Source: Candidatus Poribacteria bacterium
Lineage (GTDB): Bacteria; Poribacteria; WGA-4E; WGA-3G
Direction: 5' to 3'
Assembly (NCBI GenBank): GCA_965214045.1
Contig: OZ243935.1
Coordinates: forward strand, 2,794,904 to 2,858,903
Length of the DNA stretch: 64,000 bases
A model generated the notes under the pieces. It worked only from the letters and a program-made list of their open reading frames with translations. It was not told the origin of the DNA and searched no databases. The position numbers were made by a program, and so were the translations under genes. Shown here in pieces: positions 31,807 to 46,385 of this stretch (positions within the stretch are counted from its first letter, which is position 1; each line of letters begins with the position of its first letter).

Positions 31807-32892
31807 TCAACTTAACGCTTGTTGTAGACTTGCTTCAACCCCTTCAGCTGGTAATAGGCGTATCATTTCATCTGCCATCGCTTTTCCACCTACTTCTCCT
31901 GTTCTTCCTTCGTATTCACCATCCTTGCGCCAATCTATTTCTGATGCAGCTTTTACTAAACGTCTGACGTTGTCCCAATTCATACCTATTTCCTCGTTGT
32001 AGCTCCGCGAGAAAATTTGTGCCCCGGTATACGACCAAGCTATCAGACCTGTGAGCTCAAGGAGTTTGTACTCAAAAGCGTTTCTGCGACTGCCCTTTAT
32101 TTCAGGATCATCGAGTTTTTCAATATCTGCCCATTCTTCATGAAGATGGTCAGCGATTATCGTCCAGAGCTCGGACATGTACTCGGTTTTCTGATCAACA
32201 TCTAAATCTTGAACTCCTCCGAGTCCAAATAGGCGCGTAACTTGCTTTGCCACACTATGGAGAGCAAATAGATGTGTACGCTGCATTGATGTCTTTGTAA
32301 TCCTTCCTTTAAAGGGACTGTCATCTCGTTCATTAAGTTCCCATCCGACTTGTGCTTCTGGTTTCCCTTCAAGGTAAGCTGTTAGAGGTTTGGGTACTCC
32401 TTTTTGGTTGTCGTTGACATTGATGAATTCTTTTGCTTCTTGTTCAGGAGTGAGATTTGGAAGCAGAATGAAGGAAACTTCGCGTACATCACTGTCAGAT
32501 TCATACAGCTCTACAAAGCCACCAAGACGATGTTGTCCATCAAGGATAGCGGCTTTTCCTCGAATGATAAGTTTTCCAGTATTTTGTCCTTCCCCATTTG
32601 GTTTGAATTGCCAGTTACCACGTCCGGAGAGCAGAACGGGTGGAACTATACTATCGGGGTATTCTGTGAGAAACTTCGCGACCTGTTTCATACGAGTTAG
32701 TGAACCAGGTCTCTGGTAACCCTCTTCCACGATTTCATTAAGACAAGTTTTACGACTGGATTCAATAACGGGGACAAATGTCACGTTCTTAACCTTATCA
32801 GATTTAATTGTTCCAAATAAGTACTTCTGATTGCCTTGAGTCTTCAGAATGACTCCTTTTATTTCCCCAATTGTATTCGTTTTATTAGTCAT
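31807..32892 (-). CDS. DGQHR-domain protein (DndB-like)
   Basis: 361 aa. Contains AILDGQHRLGG, the signature of the DndB/DGQHR family. Last gene of the minus-strand defense cluster. Confidence 0.7.
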   Translation of the reverse strand: MTNKTNTIGEIKGVILKTQGNQKYLFGTIKSDKVKNVTFVPVIESSRKTCLNEIVEEGYQRPGSLTRMKQVAKFLTEYPDSIVPPVLLSGRGNWQFKPNGEGQNTGKLIIRGKAAILDGQHRLGGFVELYESDSDVREVSFILLPNLTPEQEAKEFINVNDNQKGVPKPLTAYLEGKPEAQVGWELNERDDSPFKGRITKTSMQRTHLFALHSVAKQVTRLFGLGGVQDLDVDQKTEYMSELWTIIADHLHEEWADIEKLDDPEIKGSRRNAFEYKLLELTGLIAWSYTGAQIFSRSYNEEIGMNWDNVRRLVKAASEIDWRKDGEYEGRTGEVGGKAMADEMIRLLPAEGVEASLQQALS

Positions 32893-32936
32893 TGATTAAT
32901 TCTCCTCAATGCAAGTGCGGTGTCGGTTTAACGGAA

Positions 32937-33227
32937 TCATTCTAACGTTTCAACCTCGTAAGGTGCCATCTGTGTCGCATCCGTTTTGCGGACGCGAAAT
33001 TGGATGTCCTTAAAGAGTCCATCATTATTTTTTCTCAAGCTTTCAAGGGATTCCCCTAAGGAACGTGCTGATATGTAGAAGATATACTCAAGGTCATTGC
33101 TGATTTTTTTTACGTGAAGAATAGGGGCATACCCCTTAAATGTCAAAACAACATCCGGTTCAGAGATAATTTCCAATTCTATCCATCCGGTCCCGACTTT
33201 TAAAGGCGGTGGTAATTCTTGAGGCAT
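32937..33227 (-). CDS. Hypothetical small protein (96 aa) within the defense cluster
   Basis: ORF only. 8-bp gap to the upstream gene. No recognisable motif. Confidence 0.3.
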   Translation of the reverse strand: MPQELPPPLKVGTGWIELEIISEPDVVLTFKGYAPILHVKKISNDLEYIFYISARSLGESLESLRKNNDGLFKDIQFRVRKTDATQMAPYEVETLE

Positions 33228-33235
33228 AGTTTCTC

Positions 33236-33751
33236 CTATAGATCATGCAGTGCTTCGGCAAGCTGATTTTGAATCGCTTGTTCCTCTGTAACAGGTTCGG
33301 ATTGCAGTAGGTCGTCAAGGGCATCAGAAAGGTTCCATATCGGGCTTTCGGAGCCTTCGTTTAGCATTTTCACGATGTGGGGGACACCTGCAGCTGCCAG
33401 ACCGTTGGCGATGTCCATCATGCGACGCGGCTTAAGGACAACCTCTAAGTTTCCTTCAACGGCTATCGCAATTAACATGATCGCTTGCGCCTGCCAGCCA
33501 TCCGTGTCAAAAATATTACCGCTAATGATGCTAACAGTGTCCTTTTTCTTTTTTGTTAAATGCATCGGTTTAAGATTCTGACGCGCTGCCAGCGAGAGTC
33601 CGGCAAACCAGAGATCCACCTTTCGTGGAAACGGAGTCTTAGCGGCTTTCGCACCTGCTCCCGTTTGGCAGTAATGATCGTAGTCATCCCGCTGTATAGT
33701 AGGTGATATGATTTGCATATTGCGAAAAGGATTATCGTAGTGTTGTGCCAT
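33236..33751 (-). CDS. Hypothetical protein (171 aa) within the defense cluster
   Basis: ORF tightly packed between the DndD-like and the 96-aa gene (9-bp and 8-bp gaps). No recognisable motif. Confidence 0.35.
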   Translation of the reverse strand: MAQHYDNPFRNMQIISPTIQRDDYDHYCQTGAGAKAAKTPFPRKVDLWFAGLSLAARQNLKPMHLTKKKKDTVSIISGNIFDTDGWQAQAIMLIAIAVEGNLEVVLKPRRMMDIANGLAAAGVPHIVKMLNEGSESPIWNLSDALDDLLQSEPVTEEQAIQNQLAEALHDL

Positions 33752-33760
33752 AGTGATCTC

Positions 33761-35884
33761 CTAAGATTCCGGCTGGATTTCTACCTCAACATCCGTGCGT
33801 CGCTTGCAGCGTTCACATTCTCCGAGGTCCTGGCACTCACACCGGAGTGCCTGCGGTTCATTTATATGTGGATCGTTTACTAATATAGTGGGGTAGTGTG
33901 CCGAATTTGTAATGGTGATGATACGTCCTGCTTCATCTGCTATAATATCTTCACAGTCTTTAATTTCGGAACGCGTCAGAAAGAGGATCAGTTGTGCACT
34001 TTCTTGAACAGCTGTTTTGAGAACGGAACGTTTGACAAACCCGTCCATCATTCCGAGGGGTGTATCAATCACGTTTGGTGCTATAACTTCACTGACTTTG
34101 GTGAGGGCGAGAATAAACGCTACCGTCAATGCTCTCCGAGAGGCACCATTTAAATCTTCCCTGGGGTTCAAAGCGCGTTTATTGGGTCCATAGACGAGAA
34201 TATTAAAATCTGGACTGATTTCTGCTTTCTGGATGATTGCTCCCTGTTCAGCGTCCGCGCCGATCATTTCCAGAAAAAATGTGTTCATCAACCGACTCAC
34301 TTCTTGCAATTCTTCGTTTGTGATTCGTTCGTATGAATTTTCAAGGATTTGCTCTATATCGCGCGTGGCATCTAATCTGGCTAATATTCCTTCCCCTCTT
34401 CTCTGTTTACTTATAAGGTTATTATGTGTTGCTGTTAAGGATCTCTGACTTTTTTTCAGGCGGTCAAGTTCTATTTCGTGCTCTATATGGGTACCGTTCA
34501 AAGAATCGCGTTGAGCAATATAGTCTTGCTTAGTGGCGCGAAGTTCTTGAATGTCGGTATCCCCTATACTCTCAAGTTGGACTTCCAATACGCTGAGTTC
34601 TTTTTCCAATTCTACGCGTCGAGCTTCAAGTTCATCGCGAAGGATTGCGTTTCTCTTGTATTCAGCGATCCAGTGTTGCTCATGGCTAATCTCTATCGGT
34701 TTCAGCTCCAATGAACCGAAATAAAGACCGGTCAGACGTGTTTGAAGTTCATCTGTTTCCCGACTCTCGCTAATGAGTCGTTCGATATGCGCTCTGCGCC
34801 GCTGTCCGTCTTCCGAGTGTTGATCCAGGGACTCTCCACAAATGCAGGCAGGACCTGTGAGTCGTTCTTCAAGCACAGGAATCGTTGTTTTCGGCAGTTT
34901 ACCCTGGTTGCTGAGTTCATCCAATTTCTCAAAACTTTTTTCCAAAACCGGGGCGAGCAGATCTCGGAATAGCGGCGGCTTTCTGAAGAATTGTGACTGC
35001 TCAGAAACCAGTTTTTCCTCTTGATTTTTGATTCTTTTTAGTTCTGCTTCTGATTTTTGCAGTCCGCGATTAAGTTCTTCTTGGTCCCCCTTAAGCAACG
35101 CTGCTTCAATGTCTTTATCAATTTCCGTTAGACTGTGATTGACTGCATCAAATTGAAGTTTCGCATCATCTCTTTCCTTTTCAAGACGTTCAACCTTTTC
35201 ATCTATCTCCCCCAATTCTGTAGCGATTTCGACAAGTTCTGTATCGGTTCCGATATTCTTTGAATCTCTATTGAGTCCAGCCATTGTCTTTTTCAAGTGA
35301 TCGAGAGCAGTCTCAATCACATCAAGGCCTAACAATGATTGAATGGCTTCCTGAACCTGTTTACGCTTATCTGTTCGTGAGTCTGCTTCAATGAAACTCA
35401 GTGCCCTGTCTCCGTCGGTGAAAAATACTTCACGCAAATTAGAGGGGACCAGGAGTCTGGCGATCTGTGCATCTGGTGTAGGTATTGGGGTGCTCCCAGT
35501 TTCTGTCAGTTCAAACAATTCTATTTTCGGGTTTTGTCTGAGCCCCTCGGTTGTCTCCTCTACGGAACGAATGAGGCAGTAGCGACTTGTCTTATTTCTA
35601 TTTGCCTCTGATGCAGGTGTTTCAAAATCGACTTGCACAGATATCGGAATTGCTTGACCATCAGGGACATCCCAATCAATTGGAAATAGTCGGTGTCCTC
35701 TACCTTTATCCGGTAGGGCATCATCGCCGTAGAGAGCCCATTGTAGCGCGTTTAAAATGGTCGTTTTTCCGCTCTCATTGGAGGCGCGAATGACCGTGAG
35801 TTTTCTGTCGTCACTGGTCGAAAAATCTAATCTTAGGTCTCGTAGCAGTCGAAAGTTTTGAAATCTTGCCCTGATGAGTTTCAT
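33761..35884 (-). CDS. DndD-like SMC/ABC-type ATPase
   Basis: 707 aa. N-terminus MKLIRARFQNFRLLRDLRLDF...LTVIRASNESGKTTILNALQWALYGD matches the DndD/AAA_23 Walker A region. Long coiled-coil middle. C-terminal signature/D-loop region. Confidence 0.65.
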   Translation of the reverse strand: MKLIRARFQNFRLLRDLRLDFSTSDDRKLTVIRASNESGKTTILNALQWALYGDDALPDKGRGHRLFPIDWDVPDGQAIPISVQVDFETPASEANRNKTSRYCLIRSVEETTEGLRQNPKIELFELTETGSTPIPTPDAQIARLLVPSNLREVFFTDGDRALSFIEADSRTDKRKQVQEAIQSLLGLDVIETALDHLKKTMAGLNRDSKNIGTDTELVEIATELGEIDEKVERLEKERDDAKLQFDAVNHSLTEIDKDIEAALLKGDQEELNRGLQKSEAELKRIKNQEEKLVSEQSQFFRKPPLFRDLLAPVLEKSFEKLDELSNQGKLPKTTIPVLEERLTGPACICGESLDQHSEDGQRRRAHIERLISESRETDELQTRLTGLYFGSLELKPIEISHEQHWIAEYKRNAILRDELEARRVELEKELSVLEVQLESIGDTDIQELRATKQDYIAQRDSLNGTHIEHEIELDRLKKSQRSLTATHNNLISKQRRGEGILARLDATRDIEQILENSYERITNEELQEVSRLMNTFFLEMIGADAEQGAIIQKAEISPDFNILVYGPNKRALNPREDLNGASRRALTVAFILALTKVSEVIAPNVIDTPLGMMDGFVKRSVLKTAVQESAQLILFLTRSEIKDCEDIIADEAGRIITITNSAHYPTILVNDPHINEPQALRCECQDLGECERCKRRTDVEVEIQPES

Positions 35885-36126
35885 TGCGTAACCTCTGTCG
35901 TTGGGTTATCTGTATCACGTTTCCTCGCGAGAAAATCGCCAGCCTTATGGCATGCTTGGTTTACCTGTTTTTGAATGGTTGTTCTTTGTGCTTGATGTTC
36001 TCTCTCGGCACTGAGGATTTCAACGATTGCCTCAAGCACTTTTTTCCTGTAGCCGTCGCATCTTTCCTCAATAGATTCACATTCATTGAGAATCATCTTT
36101 ACCATTTTTTCCTTGTTATATGACAT
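35881..36126 (-). CDS. Hypothetical small protein (81 aa), translationally coupled (ATGA overlap) to the DndD-like ATPase
   Basis: ORF only. 4-bp overlap with the downstream gene start. Confidence 0.3.
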   Translation of the reverse strand: MSYNKEKMVKMILNECESIEERCDGYRKKVLEAIVEILSAEREHQAQRTTIQKQVNQACHKAGDFLARKRDTDNPTTEVTQ

Positions 36127-36137
36127 AATCTCCTCCG

Positions 36138-38282
36138 TTATACGTAAAGGGTTCTAACCAGTTGGTCGATGTGGCTTAAGGGTCCATCAGGTCTACCAAA
36201 GTTCTTCGCAAGGTAAGCGAACGCTTGAATCCGTTTGAGTTCGGACGCTATTAAGGCATGTGCGCGAGTGTCCAGATTATCCAAATCCGGGGGTAGCGCG
36301 ATAAAATCGTGGATTTCACTGTGCGTTTTGCTGGTCTTACTACACGTGCGGAGCAGCCTCCCGCGCCGCTGCGTCCACTGCCGTTCCACTGTGGTGCTCG
36401 CCAAAATAAAAGCCTTCTCAATTTCTGGGATATTCACGCCTTCATCAAGTACACGCTTTGCGGTTAAGACACGCAGCGTTCCTTCTTGAAAGGACTGAAT
36501 AATCTGTGCGGTTTTTTTACGGTCACCTGTTTCTTTGTAGGTCAGTTGATGAAACAGCACCCCGTGTCTGTTCAGTAAGGCGTTAACAGCTTTCAGCTGC
36601 TGCGGTGCCTTGTCAGAGGCGTAAATCAAGGTATGCTGGAGTTTGTTGAAATCTTCGCGTTGCGTTAAGACATCTTCTAACACGGCGACCTTATTTTCTG
36701 CGTTCTCCAAAAGTGCCCGACGGTCTCGGAGCAATTTCATAAGGTACACATTGTCCGCATCCTCGTTCTCCTGCATCCACGCATTTTTCCTGATCTCTTC
36801 CGTGAGAGCATACCACTCCTCCATTTCGTCCTCTGTGAGTTCTACCGGATGCACGTAGTATTCGTATTCAACGAGGCATCTGCCGATGGCTTCCTCAAGT
36901 GTGAACTCAAAAACAATAGGTCCGAAAAACGCAAATAACTGATCCGTGCCTTCTTCATCGTATTGACGGATCGGAGTTGCGGATAAACCTAATCGATAAT
37001 CGAAAAATTCAGGCGGATCGGTGATGAATCCTTCACTTCCGAGATTGTGGACTTCATCAGCAATGAGTAAGGTTTTACAATCGAATTTCTTCAGTTCCTC
37101 TTTAAAATTAGGACTGCAAAGGGTCTTATGAGAAACAATGGCGATCTCAATGTCGCTACTACCGAATCGAAGCCTCCGCTCAAGTTTCTTAAGTTCAGCT
37201 GCACGTCCCCTTGCTCCATTCACCTCAGTCAGATTAACTGGCTTCAGCCCAAAGGATGAAATTTCATCACACCACTGTTGGATGAGGGGTATATAGGGCG
37301 CGGCAACGACGATAAGCAGTGGTTTCTCCGTCTCATAGAGTCTATGTGCACAAATCATGGCAGCGATGGTTTTTCCTGAACCTGTTGCCATTTCTAATAT
37401 CCCTTGATGACCGCCTTCACACCACGCTTTCACAGCTCTCCCTTGATGTTCAAAGTCACCCTCCTCAAATTCCAGATATGATGGTATTGTAAATGAAGGA
37501 CGGGGCACCTTAAAGTCGTAAGTTGTAGAAGCTTCCTGTATAGCAGCAGCTTCCGCTTTGTAGAGTGTGTGAAAGTCGTCCTCTGTCGGTGGGATATCGG
37601 AGTTATAGGTTTTCAACAGATTTTCCTTAATTGCTTGTGGTATCGGAATCACAGTGCACGTCTCATCGTAATTCGTCCAAAATTGCTTGAACTGATCGCA
37701 CAATTTTTCTGTAATATAGTATTGGTTACCATCTTCCCACGATTTGGAGATGGACATCTGCTCAATATTTTTCTGAATACCGGCGTAGGTCATATTGCTG
37801 GAGCCGTGTGCTGCGATAACATCGTCACCCTCGTGAAAGAGCCAGACCTTGGGGTGGAAAAGCGCATCTTTCATCAAAGCGATTTTGATTTCCACGCGTC
37901 TGTGACGCAGCATCCATGAGAGGCATTTCAGCGTATGCTGCGCAATAGCGTTTTCGGTAACAACAAAATCTTCTAAAGCTGTGTTGACGATATCCTCTAC
38001 GGAGGCTACGCCTTCTGCTATTGCCGCTTTGTCTTCAGGGCGGAGCAGCGGACTGATAATCAGACGCAAACTTTCGTCTGCACAGTTTATGAACGTTGCT
38101 AATCCTGGCGCAAGGGACACCAGAATTTCACTCGAAAAGAAACCTATCATGCAATCAACATGCGTAGCAGACTGAAAGCACGGAATTAGGACATCTTCTG
38201 TCGCGGGATCCTTTGGCAACATGTAAAGGGGTCGAATATCGGGTATCGCCCGAAGTGTCATCCCATGATTTTTTCTTTTCAT
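36138..38282 (-). CDS. Phospholipase-D-family nuclease domain fused to an SF2 (DEAD/DEAH) helicase
   Basis: 714 aa. N-terminal HxK...GSxN (HPKVWLFHEG...GSSNMTYAG). Helicase motifs I MATGSGKTIAAM, II IADEVHN, VI QRRGRLLR. Confidence 0.65.
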   Translation of the reverse strand: MKRKNHGMTLRAIPDIRPLYMLPKDPATEDVLIPCFQSATHVDCMIGFFSSEILVSLAPGLATFINCADESLRLIISPLLRPEDKAAIAEGVASVEDIVNTALEDFVVTENAIAQHTLKCLSWMLRHRRVEIKIALMKDALFHPKVWLFHEGDDVIAAHGSSNMTYAGIQKNIEQMSISKSWEDGNQYYITEKLCDQFKQFWTNYDETCTVIPIPQAIKENLLKTYNSDIPPTEDDFHTLYKAEAAAIQEASTTYDFKVPRPSFTIPSYLEFEEGDFEHQGRAVKAWCEGGHQGILEMATGSGKTIAAMICAHRLYETEKPLLIVVAAPYIPLIQQWCDEISSFGLKPVNLTEVNGARGRAAELKKLERRLRFGSSDIEIAIVSHKTLCSPNFKEELKKFDCKTLLIADEVHNLGSEGFITDPPEFFDYRLGLSATPIRQYDEEGTDQLFAFFGPIVFEFTLEEAIGRCLVEYEYYVHPVELTEDEMEEWYALTEEIRKNAWMQENEDADNVYLMKLLRDRRALLENAENKVAVLEDVLTQREDFNKLQHTLIYASDKAPQQLKAVNALLNRHGVLFHQLTYKETGDRKKTAQIIQSFQEGTLRVLTAKRVLDEGVNIPEIEKAFILASTTVERQWTQRRGRLLRTCSKTSKTHSEIHDFIALPPDLDNLDTRAHALIASELKRIQAFAYLAKNFGRPDGPLSHIDQLVRTLYV

Positions 38283-38318
38283 ATTGGTTTACAGGTATAG
38301 AAATTGATGTGATTAAAA

Positions 38319-39572: not shown

Positions 39573-39621
39573 GGGTCAGCCCTACTCCGATTGCATAAAT
39601 AGATTCTGTGCAGTAGAAATA

Positions 39622-40473: not shown

Positions 40474-40546
40474 GTCTCCTCCTACGAGTCAGTTGTGCAG
40501 AGGCGTATAAAACACGAGGCACAACCGAACAGGGTATGCTACGGTG

Positions 40547-43500
40547 TTAAATTGCCCTTTCGTTCTCAAATGCCTGCATCAGTTTTTGTGAGATACGCGC
40601 CAAAACAGCGAGTCGGAATCCGTGATTTTTCTCTGCGTCCAGTTCATCAAAAGCCGTCTCAATCGCGCGTTCCAATCCAACTGCCTGTGCCTCGGCAGTT
40701 GCGGGTAAAGTGACGACCTGTTCTTGTTCGGGTTGGTTTCGGGTTGTAATACCGATCCGAATCGCTTCACCTGTCGAGGTTTCAGTATGACCGGGTTGAT
40801 CGTAAGACACGGCTTCAAGGTGTCGGAACTTCCGTGCAAGATGTGAAAGATTATTTTGGAATTGGGCTTTATCTGTGTCTAACCATTTATCCGGCGGTTT
40901 TTTCGCGAGATAACTCGCGAGAGCGACAAGCCAGCTTTTGAAATCGTGTCCACCGCTATGGATGTTGATTAAGAATCCCTTGAGGTCGGTTTCGATCGCG
41001 ACCGGTAACAGGACTTCAGCTCTACAGACGAGGGCATCGCGGAGTGTCTCTGATGTGAGATCAAACGCTGTCGCTAACATCTCCTCAAGAGAATCCAATA
41101 GACGGTCGTATGCCTGATTTAACTCGGATAACGCCCCTTGCAGCGTCCCGAAAAATTGTGAAACGCCGTGGGGATCCGTTGCTGTCTCTGCCTTAAAAGC
41201 CGGGAACCCGAGTGCTGCTGGCAGCTGTTTAAAGAGGAGTTCATCAGGTTCGCGTGCATTTCCGAGGGTGGCACGGAGATTTTGAGCAGCTTCACTGAGT
41301 TCTTGCGTGGTCCGCGTGTACTGCGGGAGTTCGCTGATCGTCTGGACCAACGGCACGACAACCGTCAAGAGATCCGGTTTTTCAGAGGCTTCAGCGGTAT
41401 CGAGCGCGCCTAAAAATTGGGGGAACAGGTCGGCACGGATATCCGTCATCCGAAAACGTTTCAGTTCAAAGCGTTCTGGTCTTTTAATTAACCTTTCAAA
41501 GACGGGGATCGTCCAGTTCGGGATGAAGGATCCGTTTTCATAGAGGGCGATCTCTGTTTTGTAGTGAAGTATCACCGCACATAACAGGATAGGCAGCGGT
41601 CCCTCGCGGGCACCAATAGGCGGTTTCATCAGGTCTGTGTAGAGGTTAGGCAACGGCTGCCGTCTGTCTTCACACGTTTCAAGGAACTGCTCAATCGCTT
41701 CCCATATCGGTCGGACATCGTTTGTCGCGTCAGGTGAGGGCGGATGAAACCGCCACATATCCGATCCTGGAATTTGACGATGGATGCCTGTTTCTAAGAG
41801 AAGCGACCGGTAGATACTCATTTCAGCGGGGTAACCCTCTATACCGAGATTATCTTCGGCTTCCTTTTCAAGCATCGCTTGGATGAGTTTCCGCCTCGCG
41901 GTTGTAACAGCACCGGAGACTTTCCGTCTGTTAATGAGTTCGTGCCGAATCACAGGCGTTTTGGGGTAGACAGCATCGCAGATTTCTGAGAGATATCCAT
42001 TTCTCTCACGCAGCGACTTGATGGGGATCTCTTTTCCCTTATGATACCATTGACACGGATTGTCAGTACCGCCTTTACCTTTAAAGAGTGACGTTACTTC
42101 TTCAGATACACTGCGTTCCGCTTCTGAGGAACGGATTGCGAGTTCACGTCTGGCGGTTTTATCGCCTTCAAGTTCTTCCGTATTCTGCGAGACCCAGTGC
42201 AAACACGCAAGTTCTCTGACGGCACCGTATAGCGTATCTGTGGATGTTGGCATCGCAAGGAGTACCTCCTCGCGGCTTTCGAGGTTTTCACGTTTCGCTT
42301 TTTCGAGGATTTGCTTACCTTCGTTTTCATCCCCCGGCAATGCATAGAGCACAAGTCCATCTGCCGAATCAAGAGGTGCTGCGAGGGTATCCTCAAAGTT
42401 GTCAAGGTCTGTATAACGCACTGTGAAATAGCGGAGGGTGCCTTTCTCAAAAAGATGTCTGCGTGCGATGAGAGGGCGCGGCGGTATGAAATCTGACAAA
42501 TAGGTCATCAATCTTTCGTTTCGATTGAGCTGCCCTTCTGCATGCTGGAGCCGCTCTTCGATATTAATATCGCTGCCTTCCCAGAGCGCATAGGTCTTAT
42601 TATGCCGCCGATGGATCACAATTGAACGGGCTTGGATGTCTTCAAGTGTCCTGCTAAATTCCTCCTTAAATCCTGCCGTCTGATCGTCTAAAGCATAACG
42701 GAGGACCCCTTCTGAAGCGTTTAGGTTTCTACTGACTTCTCCGACAATCCCAAGCAGACCGATGGTTTTGATGAGTTTCACGAGCAGCGGCGATGGATCC
42801 GCCAATCGGTTGATAGCCATCTCAACTTCGAGCCACCGGTCCCCTTCGCGCGAGGTATAGAGTCGGTTTCCCAGACTGAGCTGGAGATAATCGTAGAGGT
42901 CGGGGATTGAAAACATCGGCAGCGTGTTCCCGTCATAAGACCGGTTTTCCAGAAAATCGCGGAGTCCATGCGGTTCAACTGCATTCAGGAAAGCAAAGAG
43001 AGAGCGTTCATTTTGTGCGAATTTTCGGAAAACGGGTCCGATGAGGAGTGCTACAGTTGGGTGAAGCGGTAGACAATTTCGGAGCAACTCGCGAAAGGCA
43101 GCCGCATCGCCGAATGGATTGAGATTGAGATCAGAGGCAGGCAGCAGCTGCAGGTCTCCGATACCTTCCGTGTCCTTGTTTTGGATAGCGGAGCCAATGA
43201 GTTGAAGGATTTGATCTGCCGGTTCCACGAAGGCGAGATCTTCAAACCGTCCTTGAACCTTTGCCCATTCCTCGCGTTGTGAGGCTGCTGCTCTGTTTGC
43301 ATAGTGTTCAAAAGCTTGATGCAAGATAGTCATGAAAAAGAGGGGTGTCTCTGCACTCCGTGTCGCAAATTCAGCGAGGGTTTGTAGCACAAACACATCG
43401 CCTTGCGCAGGATGTTGTGCGGCGTGTTCAAGGAACTTGCCAAGTTCGTCAACCACGAGTAACAAACCGCCACCGCCTTTTTTCTTGATTGTCAGTGTTG

Positions 43501-44056
43501 CAGATTCAAAAAGTGCTGTGACTTCAGTTGCTGACAAGGGATTGCCGTTTTTCTCTGTTTTCAAGAGTGCTTGGATGTCTTTTCGCAGGGAGTGTCTTGC
43601 GGTGATATGAAAGGTTTGAAGTCCGTGTTCTAATCCTTGCAAGAGGGCGTGTGTAATGGATGCGCGTTCGCCAGAGATAAGCACTGGACAAAAACCAACT
43701 GCCGTTTTTTCTCTGTTCCCGTTTAGGCTCAAAAAACGTTCGTATAATGGCGGATCGCTGTGTTTGAGTAATTTCAGAGCGTGTTTTGTTGTGGCGGTGT
43801 CAGTGTTTCCGAAGAGTTTTGCGGCGAAGAGTGCGAACGCAGATTTCCCCGCTCCGTAAGGACCCGTGAGGGACCACGCTTTTGATGTCGCCTCGTTCTC
43901 TCGTGCTGTGATAAGCCGAGCAAGGGTCTCCCGTGCTTTGACAGTCACAACGTAGCCATCTAAGGCGTTTTCGGTATAGAAATCGCGTGCCAGATGAACA
44001 GAACGTTGAAAGCGTTTGGTGATGTGAAAAATATCTGACAAGGGTGTGTTAGCCAT
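40547..44056 (-). CDS. Large P-loop ATPase (SspC/BrxC-like, DUF499-type)
   Basis: 1169 aa. Walker A LTGPYGAGKSAFALF (~aa 66). Walker B LLLVVDELGKF (~aa 210). 8-bp overlap with the upstream DUF4007 gene. Confidence 0.55.
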   Translation of the reverse strand: MANTPLSDIFHITKRFQRSVHLARDFYTENALDGYVVTVKARETLARLITARENEATSKAWSLTGPYGAGKSAFALFAAKLFGNTDTATTKHALKLLKHSDPPLYERFLSLNGNREKTAVGFCPVLISGERASITHALLQGLEHGLQTFHITARHSLRKDIQALLKTEKNGNPLSATEVTALFESATLTIKKKGGGGLLLVVDELGKFLEHAAQHPAQGDVFVLQTLAEFATRSAETPLFFMTILHQAFEHYANRAAASQREEWAKVQGRFEDLAFVEPADQILQLIGSAIQNKDTEGIGDLQLLPASDLNLNPFGDAAAFRELLRNCLPLHPTVALLIGPVFRKFAQNERSLFAFLNAVEPHGLRDFLENRSYDGNTLPMFSIPDLYDYLQLSLGNRLYTSREGDRWLEVEMAINRLADPSPLLVKLIKTIGLLGIVGEVSRNLNASEGVLRYALDDQTAGFKEEFSRTLEDIQARSIVIHRRHNKTYALWEGSDINIEERLQHAEGQLNRNERLMTYLSDFIPPRPLIARRHLFEKGTLRYFTVRYTDLDNFEDTLAAPLDSADGLVLYALPGDENEGKQILEKAKRENLESREEVLLAMPTSTDTLYGAVRELACLHWVSQNTEELEGDKTARRELAIRSSEAERSVSEEVTSLFKGKGGTDNPCQWYHKGKEIPIKSLRERNGYLSEICDAVYPKTPVIRHELINRRKVSGAVTTARRKLIQAMLEKEAEDNLGIEGYPAEMSIYRSLLLETGIHRQIPGSDMWRFHPPSPDATNDVRPIWEAIEQFLETCEDRRQPLPNLYTDLMKPPIGAREGPLPILLCAVILHYKTEIALYENGSFIPNWTIPVFERLIKRPERFELKRFRMTDIRADLFPQFLGALDTAEASEKPDLLTVVVPLVQTISELPQYTRTTQELSEAAQNLRATLGNAREPDELLFKQLPAALGFPAFKAETATDPHGVSQFFGTLQGALSELNQAYDRLLDSLEEMLATAFDLTSETLRDALVCRAEVLLPVAIETDLKGFLINIHSGGHDFKSWLVALASYLAKKPPDKWLDTDKAQFQNNLSHLARKFRHLEAVSYDQPGHTETSTGEAIRIGITTRNQPEQEQVVTLPATAEAQAVGLERAIETAFDELDAEKNHGFRLAVLARISQKLMQAFENERAI

Positions 44057-45032
44057 AACACCTCTCTAAAAGTTCCATTTCATTAAGATCTCTCTGTCGA
44101 TACAGTTGTTTCAGACCCGTCGTTTCATCGTATTCAAACGCGCCATCTGTGAGTTCTGCGAGGTCCTCAAGATAGACCGTCAGGGTATCCTCATCTAATC
44201 TGAAAACGCGTCCAGGACTCGATGGGGCATACATCAGTTCTGAGAACGCCAGTGAGTTTCTCTGGGAGAATTCGTTCGCCGAAAACGTGTCTTGTGCCCA
44301 AGGGTATGGATGTTTCCAAAATGTGTTCAATGCCCAGGCGACGACTGCCGTGGAAAGTGTTTCTTTTTCGCCACGCTGGAATTCATAACCATCTCCACCC
44401 ATTAATTCCGAGATCAGGTTCAACTCGACGAGCGGGCAGTCGAAGGTATCTTCAACGACAGCAGTGGTATCGCGTGATTGACAGTAAGTTCGGAGAAAAC
44501 AATTGACATCGCGCCGGAGTGTATTGTCGGAGACCAACCGCATCCCGGGTCTCTGTTGCTGTGCCCACCTGTAGACCTTTTGTGTAAATATATCCGGCAT
44601 AAACGGATTATCTGTTAAAATATTGAATGCCCAATACCAGGCTGTGGCTTGGGTGCCGCCTGTTGCGATCTGGTAGTGGATGATCCATAGCGTCGCCGGG
44701 TCTTCAAGGTATGGGTCGAATCCTTCTTCAGCAAAAATGTCTTTACCGAGTTGAGTCGGTGCAAATTGCCCGCGTCGGGACTGGGCGGTATCCTCTTTGA
44801 TGAGTCGAGTTGCCCGACACCAATGCCGAATGGAGTCCACCATGTTTTTTCCGACCCCTAAAGTAACGGAAGCATCCGCAGCTGAAAAAATGGTCGGATT
44901 TTCTATCACGGCATCAACGCCTTTCTTCAACCATGTATAGCGAAAAGGGAAGGTCTGGTGTCCTGAAAAAGAGGGGGAGATCGGTGGGATGTTACGCATA
45001 ACCTGCCCCCCTGGAGTATCTGGGCGGGTCAT
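44049..45032 (-). CDS. DUF4007-family protein (SspB-like)
   Basis: 327 aa. N-terminus SFSGHQTFPFRYTWLKKG matches the DUF4007 signature as I recall it. First gene of the operon. Confidence 0.5.
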   Translation of the reverse strand: MTRPDTPGGQVMRNIPPISPSFSGHQTFPFRYTWLKKGVDAVIENPTIFSAADASVTLGVGKNMVDSIRHWCRATRLIKEDTAQSRRGQFAPTQLGKDIFAEEGFDPYLEDPATLWIIHYQIATGGTQATAWYWAFNILTDNPFMPDIFTQKVYRWAQQQRPGMRLVSDNTLRRDVNCFLRTYCQSRDTTAVVEDTFDCPLVELNLISELMGGDGYEFQRGEKETLSTAVVAWALNTFWKHPYPWAQDTFSANEFSQRNSLAFSELMYAPSSPGRVFRLDEDTLTVYLEDLAELTDGAFEYDETTGLKQLYRQRDLNEMELLERCYG

Positions 45033-45159
45033 GCGAAAAGCAGGACGCGTCGAGCGTAACGCGGAACAATGAAAATAGCCCTTCGGTTAAGCGAGCGCGC
45101 GGGATAGCGGCAGCTGCAATAAAGGATTTATATTGTGTTTTACTTAATTTTTGTAAAGT

Positions 45160-45169
45160 GGGGGGGGGG
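45160..45169. repeat. G10 homopolymeric tract ~130 bp upstream of the defense operon start
   Basis: GTGGGGGGGGGGT read directly at 45160-45169 in the 460-bp intergenic region. Confidence 0.85.
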
Positions 45170-45491
45170 TAGATTGGCTTGTTAAATCAGGTGCCCAGAC
45201 GGCTTCCGGGGGTACGAATAACCTCTTGAGGCAAGGATTCTTATCAAGCATACGTGCTATTCTGATTATAGTGTTCATATCTCGATTTTTCATTCGCTTT
45301 ATTGATTAAGTACAGAGTGATGGGAATATTCAGATTTTTGTTCCTGATGTCAAGTTTACTTAAAATTTTAGCACGGATTCGTATTAAATGTCAAATTTTT
45401 TTGCTTTACTGCATCTATCATTAGTTTTTAGAATTTTATATGGATCGGATGTTCTAAAAGTTTAAGGGATATCGCAGGAAAAATTGGAGGG

Positions 45492-46385
45492 TTAGTAAAT
45501 TGAAAGTTCTCGGTAGTTTCCTTGAAACACTTCCCTAACATGCCAACCAATGAACTGTACCTCTGGATAATGGGATTGTCTTTGCGGGAGAAGAAGCGTT
45601 TTGCCGTGATACCGCTGCAGCCATTCCTTAAAGCCTTTTGTTCCGTGCGCGTCATCTGATACAAGGATTTGTCGTTGCTTGGATAGCGTAAAAGCTCCGC
45701 GATCAAATAATTCGTGATGTAACACGCATAAAGCAAGGCCATTCACTGCTTCACTGGGACCGCCATGCGATTTCCATTTGATATGTGCAGCTTCTAACGC
45801 GATAGGCGTATTTCCTAATTTCACATCGAAGCCGCATACTGCACATTTACGCTCGTAAGCTCTTAGGATGTTTTCTCGGAAATTGAGAGAGCGTCTTTTC
45901 GTCTCAAAAACTTGGAATGGTGGTTGAATGTTGACAGCTTGTAAAATTTCGCTGTGGCGTGTGAGAGGGAAGTGATCATCCAGCAAATCGTAGATTATTT
46001 CAAAGGCGAGTCTTGAATCGTTTTGAAGTTGATTTGCGATTGATTTAGGGAAACCACCGACTCCATGATGTCGTAAATCGGTTACGTAGGCATCTCCACT
46101 GGAAGTTTGTCGAATTCGATCGGTATTCCTTATCTCCCAGATTTCGTCGTTTTGCAGCCGCCAAAATGGGTGTTGAGGATGATAACTTTTGCGCCACGGT
46201 CCAAATTCTCTCAGCAAATTGCGAAGATCGTCCTCTGTAGCCTCAAATGAAATGTGTTTATCTTCACCGCTCAGCAATTTTCCGATTGCATACAATATTA
46301 ACAGTGGCTTGTGGGCTGCCCTTTGGTCGCCTCTTTTCCATACATTCAGATTCTGGAATTTATGAATGATTTCTTCTCGTGTCAT
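45492..46385 (-). CDS. HNH endonuclease with an N-terminal DNA-binding/sensor domain (type IV restriction-like)
   Basis: 297 aa. C-terminal CAVCGF...LEAAHIKWKSHGGPSEAVNGLALCVLHHELFDRGAF HNH motif. N-terminal HKPLLILYAIGKLL domain of unknown specificity. Confidence 0.6.
   Translation of the reverse strand: MTREEIIHKFQNLNVWKRGDQRAAHKPLLILYAIGKLLSGEDKHISFEATEDDLRNLLREFGPWRKSYHPQHPFWRLQNDEIWEIRNTDRIRQTSSGDAYVTDLRHHGVGGFPKSIANQLQNDSRLAFEIIYDLLDDHFPLTRHSEILQAVNIQPPFQVFETKRRSLNFRENILRAYERKCAVCGFDVKLGNTPIALEAAHIKWKSHGGPSEAVNGLALCVLHHELFDRGAFTLSKQRQILVSDDAHGTKGFKEWLQRYHGKTLLLPQRQSHYPEVQFIGWHVREVFQGNYRELSIY

What the first reader, a model, noticed from the sequence alone, without database searches (positions are those of the whole stretch)
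31807..46385. 14.6-kb low-GC, single-strand defense island combining an Ssp-like phosphorothioation core with DGQHR/DndD, PLD-helicase and two HNH nucleases
Twelve tightly packed minus-strand genes carry recognisable defense families. In order they are: HNH endonuclease, DUF4007, a 1169-aa P-loop ATPase, a PAPS-reductase PP-loop protein, DUF262-HNH, a PLD-SF2 helicase, an 81-aa ORF, a DndD-like SMC ATPase, 171-aa and 96-aa ORFs, and a DGQHR protein.

Gaps between genes are 4-60 bp, with 8-bp and 4-bp overlaps. The region looks AT-richer than its flanks and is bounded by repeat arrays at 31.3 kb and 46.6 kb.

The DUF4007 / ATPase / PAPS-reductase / DUF262-HNH order matches what I recall of SspB-SspC-SspD-SspE (single-strand DNA phosphorothioation plus a PT-sensing nuclease). 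I do not recognise the remaining gene set as any single described architecture. Possibilities include an SspFGH-like, Dnd-like or Dpd-like accessory module, or a new one.
Basis: partly seen in the sequence, partly recalled or inferred. Interest (0 to 1): 0.85.

Follow-up and report, generated by a model that had tools for sequence, protein, structure and literature searches.

The report
Ssp phosphorothioation operon fused to Pbe
A sponge-symbiont (Poribacteria) genome carries one long operon that joins the SspBCD enzymes, which put sulfur into the DNA backbone, to the PbeABCD anti-virus module and three extra sulfur-reading or nuclease genes; every part is a known kind, but the Ssp-Pbe pairing is conserved in many genomes and I found no description of it.

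Summary
The gene content is real. Eleven ORFs, plus a possible 49-aa one, lie head-to-tail on the minus strand at 31807-46385.

HMMs and fold searches give this order:
- SBD-HNH, a PT-DNA-binding restriction endonuclease
- SspB, SspC, SspD
- a 417-aa DUF262-HNH
- PbeA (HKD + SF2 helicase), PbeB (81 aa), PbeC (CxC ABC ATPase), PbeD (171 aa, DndE fold)
- a 96-aa ORF
- a DGQHR/DndB-like protein

The DUF262-HNH is not an SspE orthologue. It is a compact analogue that sits in the SspE slot, and four of five sampled relatives lie right after ssp genes.

Of 37 loci fetched with PbeA, 30 carry an SspD-type gene and 25 carry all of SspBCD. In 18, sspD directly abuts pbeA. These loci span sponge-symbiont phyla, and a cultured Sphingomonadaceae plasmid has sspABCD-pbeABCD.

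The locus sits at a conserved chromosomal site. The window has its own insertion (DUF262-HNH) and a clean deletion of a 455-aa gene.

Verdict: a new variant of known kinds, an Ssp writer coupled to Pbe and other readers. GC depression is mild and the "bounding repeats" are not boundaries.

The parts
46494..46522 (-). Sigma-70-like promoter candidate for the SBD-HNH gene (TTGACG-17-TATACT)
   Evidence: Consensus scan, 10 of 12 matches with TG. Function is inferred only.
45492..46385 (-). SBD-HNH: a phosphorothioated-DNA-binding restriction endonuclease (297 aa)
   Evidence: NCBIfam NF045808 scores 322.9 bits against a cut-off of 180. Pfam finds HNH_2. phmmer matches the ScoMcrA sulfur-binding domain 5zmm/5zmo at residues 18-98, and the TagI HNH domain. 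Among 15 orthologues, H24-K25-P26, P72-F73-W74 and the HNH residues C180, C183, H200, N214 and H222 are invariant.
45365..45394 (-). Best sigma-70-like promoter of the 16-kb region (TTGACA-18-TAAAAT with TG); likely operon promoter
   Evidence: 11 of 12 matches. The site is near-invariant in 7 related loci, although the adjoining sspB coding sequence is only about 70% identical.
45144..45293 (-). Candidate 49-aa small ORF or leader peptide ending in PPPLYKN, spanning a poly-C tract
   Evidence: In-frame ORFs of 46-50 aa ending PPPLYK[RNQ]* occur in 6 of 13 examples, despite indels in the middle of the ORF. In the other 7, the poly-C length shifts the frame. There is no Rfam, Pfam or PADLOC hit. 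Status unresolved.
45046..45063 (-). Terminator-like hairpin plus T-run, 14 nt upstream of the sspB ATG
   Evidence: Found by the pattern scan. The equivalent hairpin and U-run is the only well-kept helix in the 8-locus leader alignment. A role in attenuation is inferred.
44049..45032 (-). SspB (DUF4007, 327 aa): DNA-recognition and nicking subunit of the PT writer
   Evidence: Pfam DUF4007 288 bits. PADLOC SspB 320 bits. Solved SspB 6juf/6lb9, E 9e-34.
40547..44056 (-). SspC (1169 aa): large P-loop ATPase of the PT writer
   Evidence: PADLOC SspC 1081 bits; the BrxC model scores lower, at 669 bits. Walker A motif GPYGAGKS at residue 65. Overlaps sspB by 8 bp.
39622..40473 (-). SspD (283 aa): PP-loop PAPS-reductase-type sulfurtransferase
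   Evidence: PADLOC SspD 376 bits over the full model length. Pfam PAPS_reduct. SGGKDS motif at residue 12.
38319..39572 (-). DUF262-HNH (417 aa): GmrSD/SspE-type nuclease inserted in the SspE slot; window-specific among the PbeA loci
36138..38282 (-). PbeA (714 aa): HKD/PLD nuclease fused to an SF2 helicase
   Evidence: PADLOC PbeA 657 bits. TIGR04095 dnd_restrict_1 378 bits, which is below its 600-bit cut-off. Pfam finds ResIII, DEAD and Helicase_C, plus PLDc_2 at 25.8 bits, just below its 27-bit cut-off. GSGKT and DEVH motifs are present. An HPK...DD...HGSSN motif is kept in nearly all full-length homologues checked, one exception.
35881..36126 (-). PbeB-position small protein (81 aa)
   Evidence: It lies between pbeA and pbeC and overlaps pbeC by 4 bp. 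A homologous ORF of 71-94 aa is present in all 37 loci at 34-83% identity. No HMM matches it. Size and position match the 66-aa PbeB of Xiong 2019.
33761..35884 (-). PbeC (707 aa): CxC-type ABC ATPase, paralogue of DndD
   Evidence: PADLOC PbeC 182 bits; the DndD models score lower, at 114 bits. Walker A SGKT at residue 38 and a C-I-C motif at residue 347, mid-protein, where PMC10853773 places the coiled-coil apex.
33236..33751 (-). PbeD (171 aa): DndE-fold protein
32937..33227 (-). 96-aa ORF, first gene of the Ssp-linked '96 aa / 455 aa / DGQHR' module
   Evidence: Conserved at 56-96% identity in 11 loci. The same small gene precedes the 455-aa and DGQHR genes directly after sspD in loci that lack Pbe (L039, L041). 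No family or PDB hit.
32910..32924 (.). Scar of a clean deletion of the 455-aa gene
   Evidence: The L001 alignment breaks here. L001 positions 15334-16671 (the 455-aa ORF) have no counterpart in the window, while the flanking o96 and DGQHR genes are 96% and 94% identical at protein level.
31807..32892 (-). DGQHR / DndB-superfamily protein (361 aa)
   Evidence: TIGR03187 scores 115 bits against a cut-off of 58.85. Pfam DndB scores 60.7 against 29.1. DGQHR motif at residue 118. It is below the cut-offs for TIGR04172 (43 against 450) and DpdB (40 against 300).
31318..31505 (.). Tandem repeat of 51 bp, 3.7 copies, each with a GCCCC-AGC-GGGGC hairpin, downstream of the operon
   Evidence: TRF score 267. 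Pattern search finds four copies here, one more at 6003-6031, and none in shuffled sequence. A syntenic copy occurs in L001. It is not CRISPR-like, because the stretches between the hairpin cores resemble each other. It is not shown to be a boundary.

Best explanation
This is a composite phosphorothioate (PT) restriction-modification locus, built around one long operon on the minus strand.

**Writer.** SspB, SspC and SspD install a sulfur on the DNA backbone at a short motif. The sulfur would come from a housekeeping IscS-type cysteine desulfurase encoded outside the window. That mark labels host DNA as self.

**Readers and effectors.** Three modules are attached to the writer.
1. PbeABCD. The CxC ABC ATPase (PbeC) and the DndE-fold protein (PbeD) scan DNA. 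The HKD-nuclease/SF2-helicase (PbeA) acts on DNA that lacks the mark. The small PbeB is an essential accessory or regulator.
2. A compact DUF262-HNH in the SspE slot. It most likely acts like SspE: PT-sensing by the DGQQR NTPase domain licenses the HNH nickase.
3. A separately transcribed SBD-HNH enzyme upstream. It binds PT-DNA and probably restricts DNA that carries foreign PT patterns.

**Accessory genes.** The terminal 96-aa and DGQHR genes are the remnant of a third Ssp-linked module whose 455-aa member has been deleted here. The DGQHR protein probably still acts as a DndB-like regulator or DNA-binding NTPase.

**What is shown and what is inferred.**
- Shown: the identity of each part, gene order, conservation of the Ssp-Pbe junction, and the window-specific insertion and deletion.
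- Inferred: that Pbe reads Ssp-made PT, the modified motif, the activities of both HNH proteins, and the role of DGQHR.
For: **Part identities.**
- SspB, SspC and SspD are identified by HMM scores of 320, 1081 and 376 bits.
- PbeA scores 657 bits and PbeC 182 bits. PbeC carries the CxC motif.
- The SBD-HNH matches NF045808 at 323 bits and the ScoMcrA sulfur-binding domain.
- The DUF262-HNH has a GmrSD/SspE-type fold.

**Operon structure.** Gene spacing from sspB to DGQHR is -8 to +73 bp. One strong, conserved promoter lies upstream of sspB.

**Ssp-Pbe linkage across genomes.**
- Of 37 loci found through PbeA, 30 have an SspD-type gene within 10 kb, 25 have all of SspBCD, and 18 have sspD directly abutting pbeA on the same strand.
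- Linkage persists with very divergent Ssp alleles (SspC 23-30% identical) and in rearranged orders, in Latescibacterota, Dehalococcoidia, Caldilineaceae, Oleispirillum and Acidobacteriota.
- Plasmid CP099618.1 from a cultured Sphingomonadaceae has sspA-B-C-D-pbeA-B-C-D with overlapping stop and start codons.

**Published support.**
- Pbe antiviral activity needs PT in host DNA, and 320 of 553 pbeAC pairs lacked a dnd partner (PMC6459918).
- 83.9% of sspBCD clusters lack sspE or sspFGH (PMC8092258).

**The sspD-pbeA slot and the accessory modules.**
- The slot holds a true SspE in L009 (942 bits).
- Homologues of the DUF262-HNH sit right after ssp genes in 4 of 5 sampled contexts.
- The 96-aa / 455-aa / DGQHR module follows sspD directly in loci without Pbe.
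Against: - No experiment links Pbe to Ssp-type single-strand PT. Published Pbe work used Dnd (GpsATC).
- No cysteine desulfurase gene is in the window.
- Rakesh et al. (PMC10853773) argue that CxC/Pbe systems also occur without any PT genes and may act by suicide rather than by restriction.
- The DUF262-HNH lacks the GHKL partner that accompanied it in three of the five sampled contexts. The DGQHR module lacks its 455-aa member. Both may therefore be crippled here.
- A PT-cutting SBD-HNH next to a PT writer is paradoxical. NEB found fewer than 3.6% of such enzymes near dnd clusters (PMC7461809). In the window the Tyr of the ScoMcrA sulfur pocket is His.
- The loci sampled are biased: they were found with a PbeA query of one clade.
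Confidence: 0.62

Rival explanations
1. Simple stacking. The locus is a defence hotspot where independent systems have piled up without functional coupling. These would be an orphan or epigenetic SspBCD, a self-sufficient CxC/Pbe system, a stand-alone type IV DUF262-HNH and a stand-alone type IV SBD-HNH.
For: - The site is hypervariable between relatives. L042 has DUF262-HNH plus a GHKL ATPase and no Pbe. L047 has GIY-YIG, DndB and a TGT gene. L009 has SspE.
- sspBCD is only 69-76% identical at the nucleotide level where the flanking Pbe and SBD-HNH genes are 82-95%. This indicates cassette exchange.
- Pbe/CxC systems occur without PT genes (PMC10853773), and 2 of the 37 loci have no ssp or dnd gene nearby.
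- GC content differs between modules.
Against: - sspD abuts pbeA with gaps under 400 bp, co-oriented, in 18 genomes. The linkage survives rearrangement and deep Ssp divergence across at least 6 lineages and on a plasmid.
- A single conserved promoter lies upstream and no strong internal terminators were found.
- Published Pbe activity depends on PT.
- Every inserted module is of a PT-related family (DUF262, SBD, DGQHR), not a random draw of defence systems.
Confidence: 0.2
2. The Pbe part belongs to the writer, not the reader. PbeC and PbeD are paralogues of DndD and DndE. They would give the SspD sulfurtransferase a second DNA-recognition and nicking route, changing the motif, strand pattern or density of PT. 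PbeA would serve only as a translocase.
For: - PbeD has the DndE fold.
- PbeC is the sister clade of DndD (PMC10853773).
- Three loci (L012, L015, L020) have SspD and PbeABCD but no detectable SspB or SspC within 10 kb.
- Xiong 2019 saw no cleavage of viral DNA.
Against: - In H. jeotgali, dndCDEA alone made PT, and the pbe genes were needed only for defence (PMC6459918).
- PbeA keeps an HKD-like nuclease motif in nearly all full-length homologues checked, one exception.
- 25 loci keep a complete SspBCD alongside Pbe.
Confidence: 0.08
3. A partly decayed locus. The window copy is a recombinant remnant, so only SspBCD, or nothing, is active. The DUF262-HNH lacks its GHKL partner, the DGQHR module lacks its 455-aa putative nuclease, and there is no SspA.
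For: - The 455-aa gene has been cleanly deleted relative to L001.
- The usual GHKL neighbour is missing.
- The poly-C tract in the leader varies in length between genomes.
Against: - All eleven ORFs are intact, with catalytic motifs preserved.
- Pairs of 96-aa and DGQHR genes without the 455-aa gene recur independently in L004, L021 and L030.
- Poribacteria loci never carry sspA next to sspBCD. The literature shows that IscS can substitute for SspA (PMC8092258).
Confidence: 0.1

Closest known systems
SspABCD-SspE (Xiong et al. 2020) and SspABCD-SspFGH (Wang et al. 2021, PMC8092258)
   Same: The SspB (DUF4007), SspC and SspD trio is in the same order, with an sspB/sspC overlap. The desulfurase is supplied in trans, as in E. 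coli 3234/A. A DUF262-plus-HNH protein lies directly after sspD, where sspE lies.
   Different: - There is no SspE orthologue. The protein here is 417 aa, matches no SspE HMM and carries PF01844 HNH, not the DUF1524 domain reported for SspE.
- There is no SspFGH.
- The main downstream partner is PbeABCD.
- There is an upstream SBD-HNH and a downstream DGQHR gene.
- The modified motif is unknown.
DndCDEA-PbeABCD of Haloterrigena jeotgali (Xiong et al. 2019, PMC6459918), equivalent to the CxC ABC-ATPase/DndE-anchored systems of Rakesh et al. 2024 (PMC10853773)
   Same: The four-gene order and sizes match: 714/81/707/171 aa here, against a helicase-nuclease, a 66-aa protein, a CxC ATPase and a 152-aa protein there. 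The window shares the HKD plus SF2 helicase, the CxC motif and the DndE fold of PbeD. In classical Dnd-Pbe plasmids a DGQHR protein is also a neighbour (L050).
   Different: The writer is SspBCD (ring ATPase plus triple-wHTH SspB), not DndCDE(A). PbeD and PbeB are too divergent for the existing HMMs. The DGQHR protein belongs to a different subfamily from TIGR04172.
SBD-HNH PT-dependent type IV restriction enzymes (ScoMcrA, SprMcrA, EcoWI; PMC7461809)
   Same: It has an N-terminal sulfur-binding wHTH domain and a C-terminal HNH domain. It passes the NCBIfam PT-DNA_restrict model.
   Different: It is conserved immediately upstream of a PT writer in at least 14 loci, whereas such enzymes were reported near dnd clusters in fewer than 3.6% of cases. 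It has no SRA domain. The pocket Tyr of ScoMcrA is variable among orthologues and is His here.
GmrSD-family enzymes (GmrSD, BrxU, SspE, DndI)
   Different: It is much shorter and carries a classical HNH (PF01844) domain, not DUF1524. Its family is mostly Ssp-linked and was paired with a GHKL ATPase in three of the five contexts sampled; that partner is missing in this window.
DndB / DpdB DGQHR proteins
   Same: A DGQHR motif and the DndB Pfam domain, in a genomic association with PT genes.
   Different: It scores below the equivalog cut-offs for DndB-type DGQHR protein 1 and for DpdB. It normally travels with a 96-aa and a 455-aa protein directly after sspD. I did not find that three-gene module described.

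Membership tests
SspABCD PT-modification system | SspB: DUF4007 protein | tested here: met
   Pfam DUF4007 288 bits; PADLOC SspB 320 bits; solved SspB 6juf, E 9e-34.
SspABCD PT-modification system | SspC: ATPase of about 1100 aa with a Walker A motif, encoded after sspB | tested here: met
   PADLOC SspC 1081 bits, full length; GPYGAGKS motif; 8-bp overlap with sspB.
SspABCD PT-modification system | SspD: PAPS-reductase PP-loop protein | tested here: met
   PADLOC SspD 376 bits; SGGKDS motif.
SspABCD PT-modification system | SspA cysteine desulfurase in the cluster | tested here: not met
   tblastn with the L017 SspA finds nothing in the 64-kb window. The literature accepts IscS acting in trans (PMC8092258).
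SspABCD PT-modification system | Single-strand PT at a defined motif (CpsCA in the model systems) | not testable with these tools
   Needs LC-MS/MS or PT-sensitive sequencing.
SspE | N-terminal DUF262 domain with a DGQQR motif | tested here: met
SspE | Sequence membership: match to SspE profiles, about 770 aa with a DUF1524-type C-terminus | tested here: not met
   None of the ten PADLOC SspE models matched by the L009 SspE is hit at E<=0.01, while the L009 SspE scores 942 bits. BLASTP against the L009 SspE is not significant. The protein is 417 aa and its nuclease domain is PF01844 HNH.
SspE | Encoded directly downstream of sspD | tested here: met
   A 49-bp gap separates it from sspD. In 4 of 5 sampled homologues the gene is Ssp-adjacent.
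SspE | PT-stimulated GTPase that licenses nicking | not testable with these tools
   Requires a biochemical assay.
PbeABCD (CxC ABC-ATPase/DndE system) | PbeA: HKD/PLD nuclease fused to an SF2 helicase | tested here: met
   PADLOC PbeA 657 bits. Pfam finds ResIII, DEAD and Helicase_C, plus PLDc_2 at 25.8 bits, just below its 27-bit cut-off. The HPK...HGSSN motif is conserved.
PbeABCD (CxC ABC-ATPase/DndE system) | PbeB: small protein encoded between pbeA and pbeC | tested here: met
   An 81-aa ORF in this position, present in all 37 loci. The test rests on position and size only; no profile matches it.
PbeABCD (CxC ABC-ATPase/DndE system) | PbeC: ABC ATPase with a CxC Zn-hook in the coiled coil | tested here: met
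   PADLOC PbeC 182 bits, above the DndD models at 114 bits. C-I-C motif at residue 347.
PbeABCD (CxC ABC-ATPase/DndE system) | PbeD: cognate of DndE | tested here: met
PbeABCD (CxC ABC-ATPase/DndE system) | Paired with dndCDE(A), as in the described system | tested here: not met
   No DndC, DndD or DndE assignment: the weak DndC hits of SspD and DndD hits of PbeC are outscored by SspD and PbeC models. The neighbour is sspBCD.
SBD-HNH PT-dependent restriction endonucleases | Sulfur-binding domain plus HNH domain | tested here: met
   NF045808 scores 323 bits against a cut-off of 180. ScoMcrA SBD alignment; HNH residues invariant.
SBD-HNH PT-dependent restriction endonucleases | Intact sulfur-recognition pocket (HR/HK and YP motifs) | tested here: inconclusive
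   The HK-P and P-F-W residues are invariant. The position aligned to the ScoMcrA Tyr is His in the window and varies among orthologues as Y, H, F, Q or D.
DndB/DGQHR family | DGQHR domain | tested here: met
   TIGR03187 scores 115 bits against 58.85. Pfam DndB scores 60.7 against 29.1. The motif is at residue 118.
DndB/DGQHR family | Equivalog membership (TIGR04172 Dnd-associated DGQHR protein 1, or DpdB) | tested here: not met
   43 bits against a cut-off of 450, and 40 bits against 300.
SspFGH / DndFGH | Walker-A SspF/DndF protein and FtsK-like SspH/DndH protein | tested here: not met
   No PADLOC hit to SspF, SspG, SspH or DndF-H was listed for any of the 11 proteins. For PbeA and PbeC only the best 25 of 28 and 75 hits were displayed.
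Dpd 7-deazaguanine system | DpdA (TGT-like) protein together with DpdB | tested here: not met
   No TGT-family protein was found among the island proteins. DGQHR is far below the DpdB cut-off. A TGT gene does occur at the same chromosomal site in relative L047.

The most novel reading that the evidence does not exclude
SspBCD is a hub writer with several undescribed reader and effector partners. These partners would explain most 'orphan' sspBCD clusters and 'solitary' pbeAC pairs. They would be:
- Ssp-Pbe, a seven- or eight-gene PT restriction-modification operon in which a CxC-ATPase/DndE/HKD-helicase machine reads single-strand PT.
- A compact DUF262-HNH, with or without a GHKL ATPase.
- A '96-aa / 455-aa putative nuclease / DGQHR' module.

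An SBD-HNH enzyme conserved next to the writer would use self-PT as a licensing signal, not as a restriction target.

The operon would be gated by a polyproline leader peptide whose poly-C tract phase-varies upstream of a terminator.
Probability: 0.25. Interest if true: 0.75.

Novelty: new variant of a known kind. Interest (0 to 1): 0.6.

Why it matters
Two open puzzles in PT biology meet here.

1. About 84% of sspBCD clusters have no known restriction partner (PMC8092258).
2. More than half of pbeAC pairs have no dnd partner (PMC6459918). This has fuelled doubt that Pbe is a PT-dependent restriction module at all (PMC10853773).

A conserved sspBCD-pbeABCD operon suggests that part of each group is the missing partner of the other. 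It also makes the idea testable, because the same operon sits on a plasmid of a cultured Sphingomonadaceae isolate.

The locus further shows a PT-binding nuclease kept next to a PT writer, against the expectation from earlier neighbourhood surveys. It points to two more candidate Ssp-coupled modules.

The finding is incremental, not categorical. Every domain is known, and nothing here is experimentally shown.

Tried and rejected
**Searches that found nothing.**
- Megablast of the island against E. coli genomes: no match.
- Exact-sequence look-ups of window proteins. Identical proteins P0001 and P0241 exist on a 4.82-Mb NCBI/ENA contig, but P0001 had no gene position on record; P0241 was not looked up.
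- Rfam, on the whole window and on the sspB leader.
- Pfam, PADLOC and NCBIfam on the 81-, 96- and 171-aa ORFs; also Pfam at E<=10.
- Profile searches against PDB sequences for PbeD, the 96-aa family and the 455-aa family. Only fold search resolved PbeD.
- A consensus RNA structure for the leader: weak at -6 kcal/mol, and only the terminator helix is kept.
- PADLOC on flanking window proteins: no convincing extra defence genes.
- Literature searches for any named Ssp-Pbe combination: none in the held library. Krishnan et al. 2020 is not held, so a mention there cannot be excluded.

**Readings rejected.**
- SspFGH, DndFGH and Dpd.
- BREX: the BrxC model scores well below SspC, and SspD matches the BrxP model only weakly (41 bits against 376 for SspD).
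- A CRISPR array for the 51-bp repeats, because the stretches between the hairpin cores resemble each other.
- A mobile island bounded by repeats. There is no tRNA, no integrase-family match among the flanking proteins scanned, and the flanks are syntenic in relatives that hold the same locus.

Full report
**What is in the sequence.**

The region 31807-46385 holds eleven ORFs on the minus strand. In transcription order they are:

| Coordinates | Length |
|---|---|
| 45492-46385 | 297 aa |
| 44049-45032 | 327 aa |
| 40547-44056 | 1169 aa |
| 39622-40473 | 283 aa |
| 38319-39572 | 417 aa |
| 36138-38282 | 714 aa |
| 35881-36126 | 81 aa |
| 33761-35884 | 707 aa |
| 33236-33751 | 171 aa |
| 32937-33227 | 96 aa |
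| 31807-32892 | 361 aa |

From sspB onward, spacing runs from -8 to +73 bp. The first gene is separated from sspB by 459 bp.

The island is 46.4% GC against 49.3% for the rest of the window, and this is uneven. sspBCD are 50-51.5%. DUF262-HNH is 41%, DGQHR 43% and SBD-HNH 44%.

The 31.3-kb repeat is real: 3.7 copies of 51 bp, each with a GCCCC-AGC-GGGGC hairpin. The '46.6-kb array' is 2 copies of 14 bp. There is no tRNA.

**Identity of the parts.**

- *SspBCD.* PADLOC, Pfam and NCBIfam identify SspB (DUF4007; 320 bits), SspC (1081 bits, well above BrxC) and SspD (376 bits; SGGKDS motif). SspB also matches the solved SspB structure 6juf at E 9e-34.
- *PbeA.* The 714-aa protein scores 657 bits against PbeA. 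Pfam finds ResIII, DEAD and Helicase_C, plus PLDc_2 just below its cut-off. It has GSGKT and DEVH motifs, and an HPK...DD...HGSSN motif kept in nearly all full-length homologues checked, one exception.
- *PbeC.* The 707-aa protein scores 182 bits against PbeC, above DndD. It carries a C-I-C motif at residue 347, mid-protein; PMC10853773 places the CxC Zn-hook of these ABC ATPases at the coiled-coil apex.
- *PbeB.* The 81-aa ORF sits between pbeA and pbeC. This reproduces the published PbeA-B-C-D order and sizes; PbeB is 66 aa and PbeD 152 aa in PMC6459918.
- *SBD-HNH.* The first gene is not a generic HNH. It passes NCBIfam NF045808, 'phosphorothioated DNA-binding restriction endonuclease', at 323 bits against a cut-off of 180. 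Its N-terminus aligns to the ScoMcrA sulfur-binding domain. HNH residues and most pocket residues are invariant in 15 orthologues. The position aligned to the ScoMcrA Tyr is variable and is His here.
- *DGQHR.* The last gene is a DGQHR/DndB-superfamily protein. It is below the cut-offs for the Dnd-associated DGQHR-1 equivalog and for DpdB.

**The DUF262-HNH is an SspE analogue, not SspE.**

No PADLOC SspE model matches it. The 774-aa gene in the same slot of locus L009 scores 942 bits against SspE, and the two proteins share no significant BLASTP similarity.

Its own family is large. Five homologues at 52-79% identity were sampled, and four lie immediately after ssp genes:
- L042: SspB-C-D, DUF262-HNH, then an 827-aa protein.
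- L044.
- L045 (Anaerolineae).
- L047.

In three of these four the next gene is a 720-830-aa protein with a weak GHKL (HATPase_c_3) match. The window has the nuclease but not that partner.

**Comparative evidence for an Ssp-Pbe unit.**

A scan of one genome per GTDB species with PbeA returned 37 loci. Most are Candidatus Poribacteria MAGs, so the window is from a sponge symbiont. The rest are Latescibacterota, Dehalococcoidia/Chloroflexota, Caldilineaceae, Rhodospirillaceae, Oleispirillum and Acidobacteriota.

| Feature within the 37 loci | Count |
|---|---|
| SspD-type gene within 10 kb | 30 |
| All of SspBCD | 25 |
| sspD directly upstream of pbeA, same strand, gap under 400 bp | 18 |
| Insert of 0.5-2.7 kb between sspD and pbeA (SspE in L009) | 6 |
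| SBD-HNH | 13 |
| 96-aa gene | 13 |
| DGQHR | 9 |

Linkage persists with very divergent Ssp alleles (SspC 23-30% identical, with sspA present) and with ssp downstream or inverted.

Outside metagenomes, plasmid CP099618.1 of a cultured Sphingomonadaceae encodes these genes with overlapping stop and start codons:
1. cysteine desulfurase
2. DUF4007 protein
3. a 1100-aa protein
4. PAPS reductase
5. PbeA (48% identical)
6. a 74-aa protein
7. an AAA ATPase
8. a 148-aa protein

More distant PbeA genes (about 30% identical) show the classical context. One example runs dndC-D-E-desulfurase ... PbeA-B-C, 'phosphorothioation-associated protein 4', 'DGQHR protein 1'.

I found no paper in the held library that names or describes an Ssp-Pbe pairing. 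Krishnan et al. 2020 could not be read.

**The locus is a variable site, not a fresh island.**

The flanks are syntenic with L001, L002, L003, L014, L023, L042 and L047:
- 27.5-30.9 kb: two PhyH paralogues and a 410-aa gene.
- 48.4-50 kb: an FGE-sulfatase and a MutY-like gene.

Against these relatives the window shows four differences.
1. An inserted DUF262-HNH at about 38.3-39.6 kb.
2. An inserted AAA_35 ATPase gene at 46.4-48.4 kb.
3. A clean 1.34-kb deletion of a 455-aa gene between the 96-aa and DGQHR genes. The scar is at 32910-32924, and the neighbouring genes are 96% and 94% identical to L001.
4. An sspBCD cassette only 69-76% identical at the nucleotide level. The Pbe genes are 82-85% identical. 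SBD-HNH plus the leader are up to 93%, and the right flank 97%.

The breaks lie at the 5' end of sspB and at the sspD/pbeA junction. This is what exchange of the writer cassette would produce.

**The 96-aa / 455-aa / DGQHR module.**

DGQHR homologues at 56-69% identity were traced to other contigs.
- In a Gemmatimonadetes MAG and a metagenome contig the order is (SspA-)SspB-SspC-SspD, 96/97-aa gene, 455/458-aa gene, DGQHR. No Pbe is present.
- A third context keeps the 458-aa and DGQHR pair beside degraded ssp genes.

This is therefore a separate Ssp-linked module. It is not SspFGH, which has a Walker A SspF and an FtsK-like SspH.

The 455-aa family has no Pfam, PADLOC or PDB sequence match. 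It does have an invariant C-terminal block, PSxENE...EYTxRxGIDA...E-x-E...H-x-H...CWD. That suggests, but does not show, a restriction-endonuclease-like domain. It is missing in the window and, independently, in L004, L021 and L030.

**Regulatory features.**

- The best promoter-like site of the 16-kb region is TTGACA-18-TAAAAT with TG, at 45394-45365. It lies upstream of sspB and is near-invariant in seven other loci.
- SBD-HNH has its own candidate promoter at 46522-46494.
- The roughly 330-nt leader holds an invariant block, TAACAAGCC...C(8-14)ACTTTACAAA..TAAG. A hairpin plus T-run follows just before sspB.
- A 46-50-aa ORF ending PPPLYK[RNQ]* is kept in frame in 6 of 13 examples, despite indels in its middle. 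In the other 7 the poly-C length shifts the frame.

Three explanations for the leader ORF remain open: a polyproline leader peptide with attenuation, a phase-variable tract, or homopolymer sequencing noise over non-coding DNA.

**How it most likely works.**

- Established knowledge: SspBCD with a desulfurase installs single-strand PT. SspE is licensed by PT-stimulated GTP hydrolysis (PMC13251355). Pbe protection requires PT in host DNA, and PT-modified virus escapes (PMC6459918).
- Shown here: the parts, and their conserved physical coupling.
- Inferred: Ssp-made PT is the self mark read by PbeABCD and by the DUF262-HNH. SBD-HNH targets DNA with other PT patterns. Its sequence does not co-vary with the SspBC allele: L014 is 95% identical in SBD-HNH but 59% in SspC. 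DGQHR acts as a DndB-like regulator or NTPase.

The main rival is plain stacking of independent systems in a hotspot. The variability of the site and the existence of PT-less CxC systems support it. The tight, widely conserved sspD-pbeA junction and the PT-related nature of every inserted gene argue against it.

**Verdict.**

The locus is not a categorically new system. It is an apparently undescribed, conserved combination of known modules, with two further candidate Ssp partners seen in relatives. Interest is moderate to high for PT and defence specialists, and the idea can be tested in a cultured strain.

Noticed in passing
window 45033-45394 (minus strand): A conserved leader lies upstream of sspB. 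It has a near-invariant promoter, a 49-aa ORF ending in PPPLYKN that spans a poly-C tract varying from 8 to 14 C between genomes, and a hairpin plus T-run just before the sspB ATG. The leader is 90-92% identical to L002 and L014, although the adjoining sspB coding sequence is only about 70% identical.
   Followed up: partly
window 32910-32924, compared with L001 15334-16671: A clean deletion of a conserved 455-aa gene between the 96-aa ORF and the DGQHR gene. The same gene is independently absent in L004, L021 and L030. Its family has an invariant C-terminal block (GIDA...E-x-E...DHGHP..LVxCWD) and no database match.
   Followed up: partly
window 39.6-45.0 kb, compared with its flanks: The sspBCD cassette is 69-76% identical at the nucleotide level to every relative. 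Adjacent pbeABCD is 82-85% identical and SBD-HNH plus the leader is up to 93%. The sharp breaks at the sspB 5' end and at the sspD/pbeA junction suggest replacement of the writer (specificity) cassette.
   Followed up: partly
window 46755-48353 (+) and 52479-54125 (-): Two paralogous AAA_35 (PF14516) ATPase genes. The first is a window-specific insertion between SBD-HNH and the FGE-sulfatase gene. Its C-terminus shows a weak Cas4-like/PD-(D/E)xK match in PADLOC (E about 1e-3).
   Followed up: partly
window 31318-31505 and 6003-6031; L001 20220-20246: A 51-bp tandem repeat family with a GCCCC-AGC-GGGGC hairpin followed by CATGTCTGTAGC. It looks REP-like. It occurs downstream of the operon and once elsewhere in the window, and a copy lies at the syntenic place in L001.
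   Followed up: partly
L047 (GCA_022826425.1, JAJDUV010000022.1) 2428-17642: The same chromosomal site (FGE-sulfatase and MutY-like flank) in another genome holds, in order: SBD-HNH, SspB, SspC, SspD, DUF262-HNH, a GIY-YIG-like gene, a 470-aa DndB protein, DUF6884, and further on a TGT (DpdA-like) gene. This would be a possible Ssp plus Dpd-like combination.
   Followed up: no
L042 9286-11769; L044 9290-11749; L045 9560-11719: A protein of 720-830 aa with a weak GHKL (HATPase_c_3) match always follows the Ssp-linked DUF262-HNH in these three loci. This is a candidate two-gene Ssp effector module with no PADLOC model.
   Followed up: partly
L048 (plasmid CP099618.1) 3208-14306: A cultured Sphingomonadaceae leaf isolate carries an eight-gene sspABCD-pbeABCD operon on a 126-kb plasmid. 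All genes are annotated only generically. It is a ready experimental model.
   Followed up: partly
window 25888-26119: A 122-bp tandem duplication (1.9 copies, 95% identical) lies in an AT-rich intergenic stretch; GC is about 41% over 25-27 kb.
   Followed up: no
window 27512-28249 and 28445-29179: Two tandem PhyH-family dioxygenase paralogues flank the locus. Relatives carry two or three copies at the same place (for example L014 and L042).
   Followed up: no
alignment A8 positions 398-415, compared with PDB 6lba_A 520-537: The DHGHPxxQxxLVxCWD block of the 455-aa family matches an 18-residue stretch of a solved 'protein kinase family protein'. The match is not significant (E 0.44), and I do not know what that domain is.
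   Followed up: no
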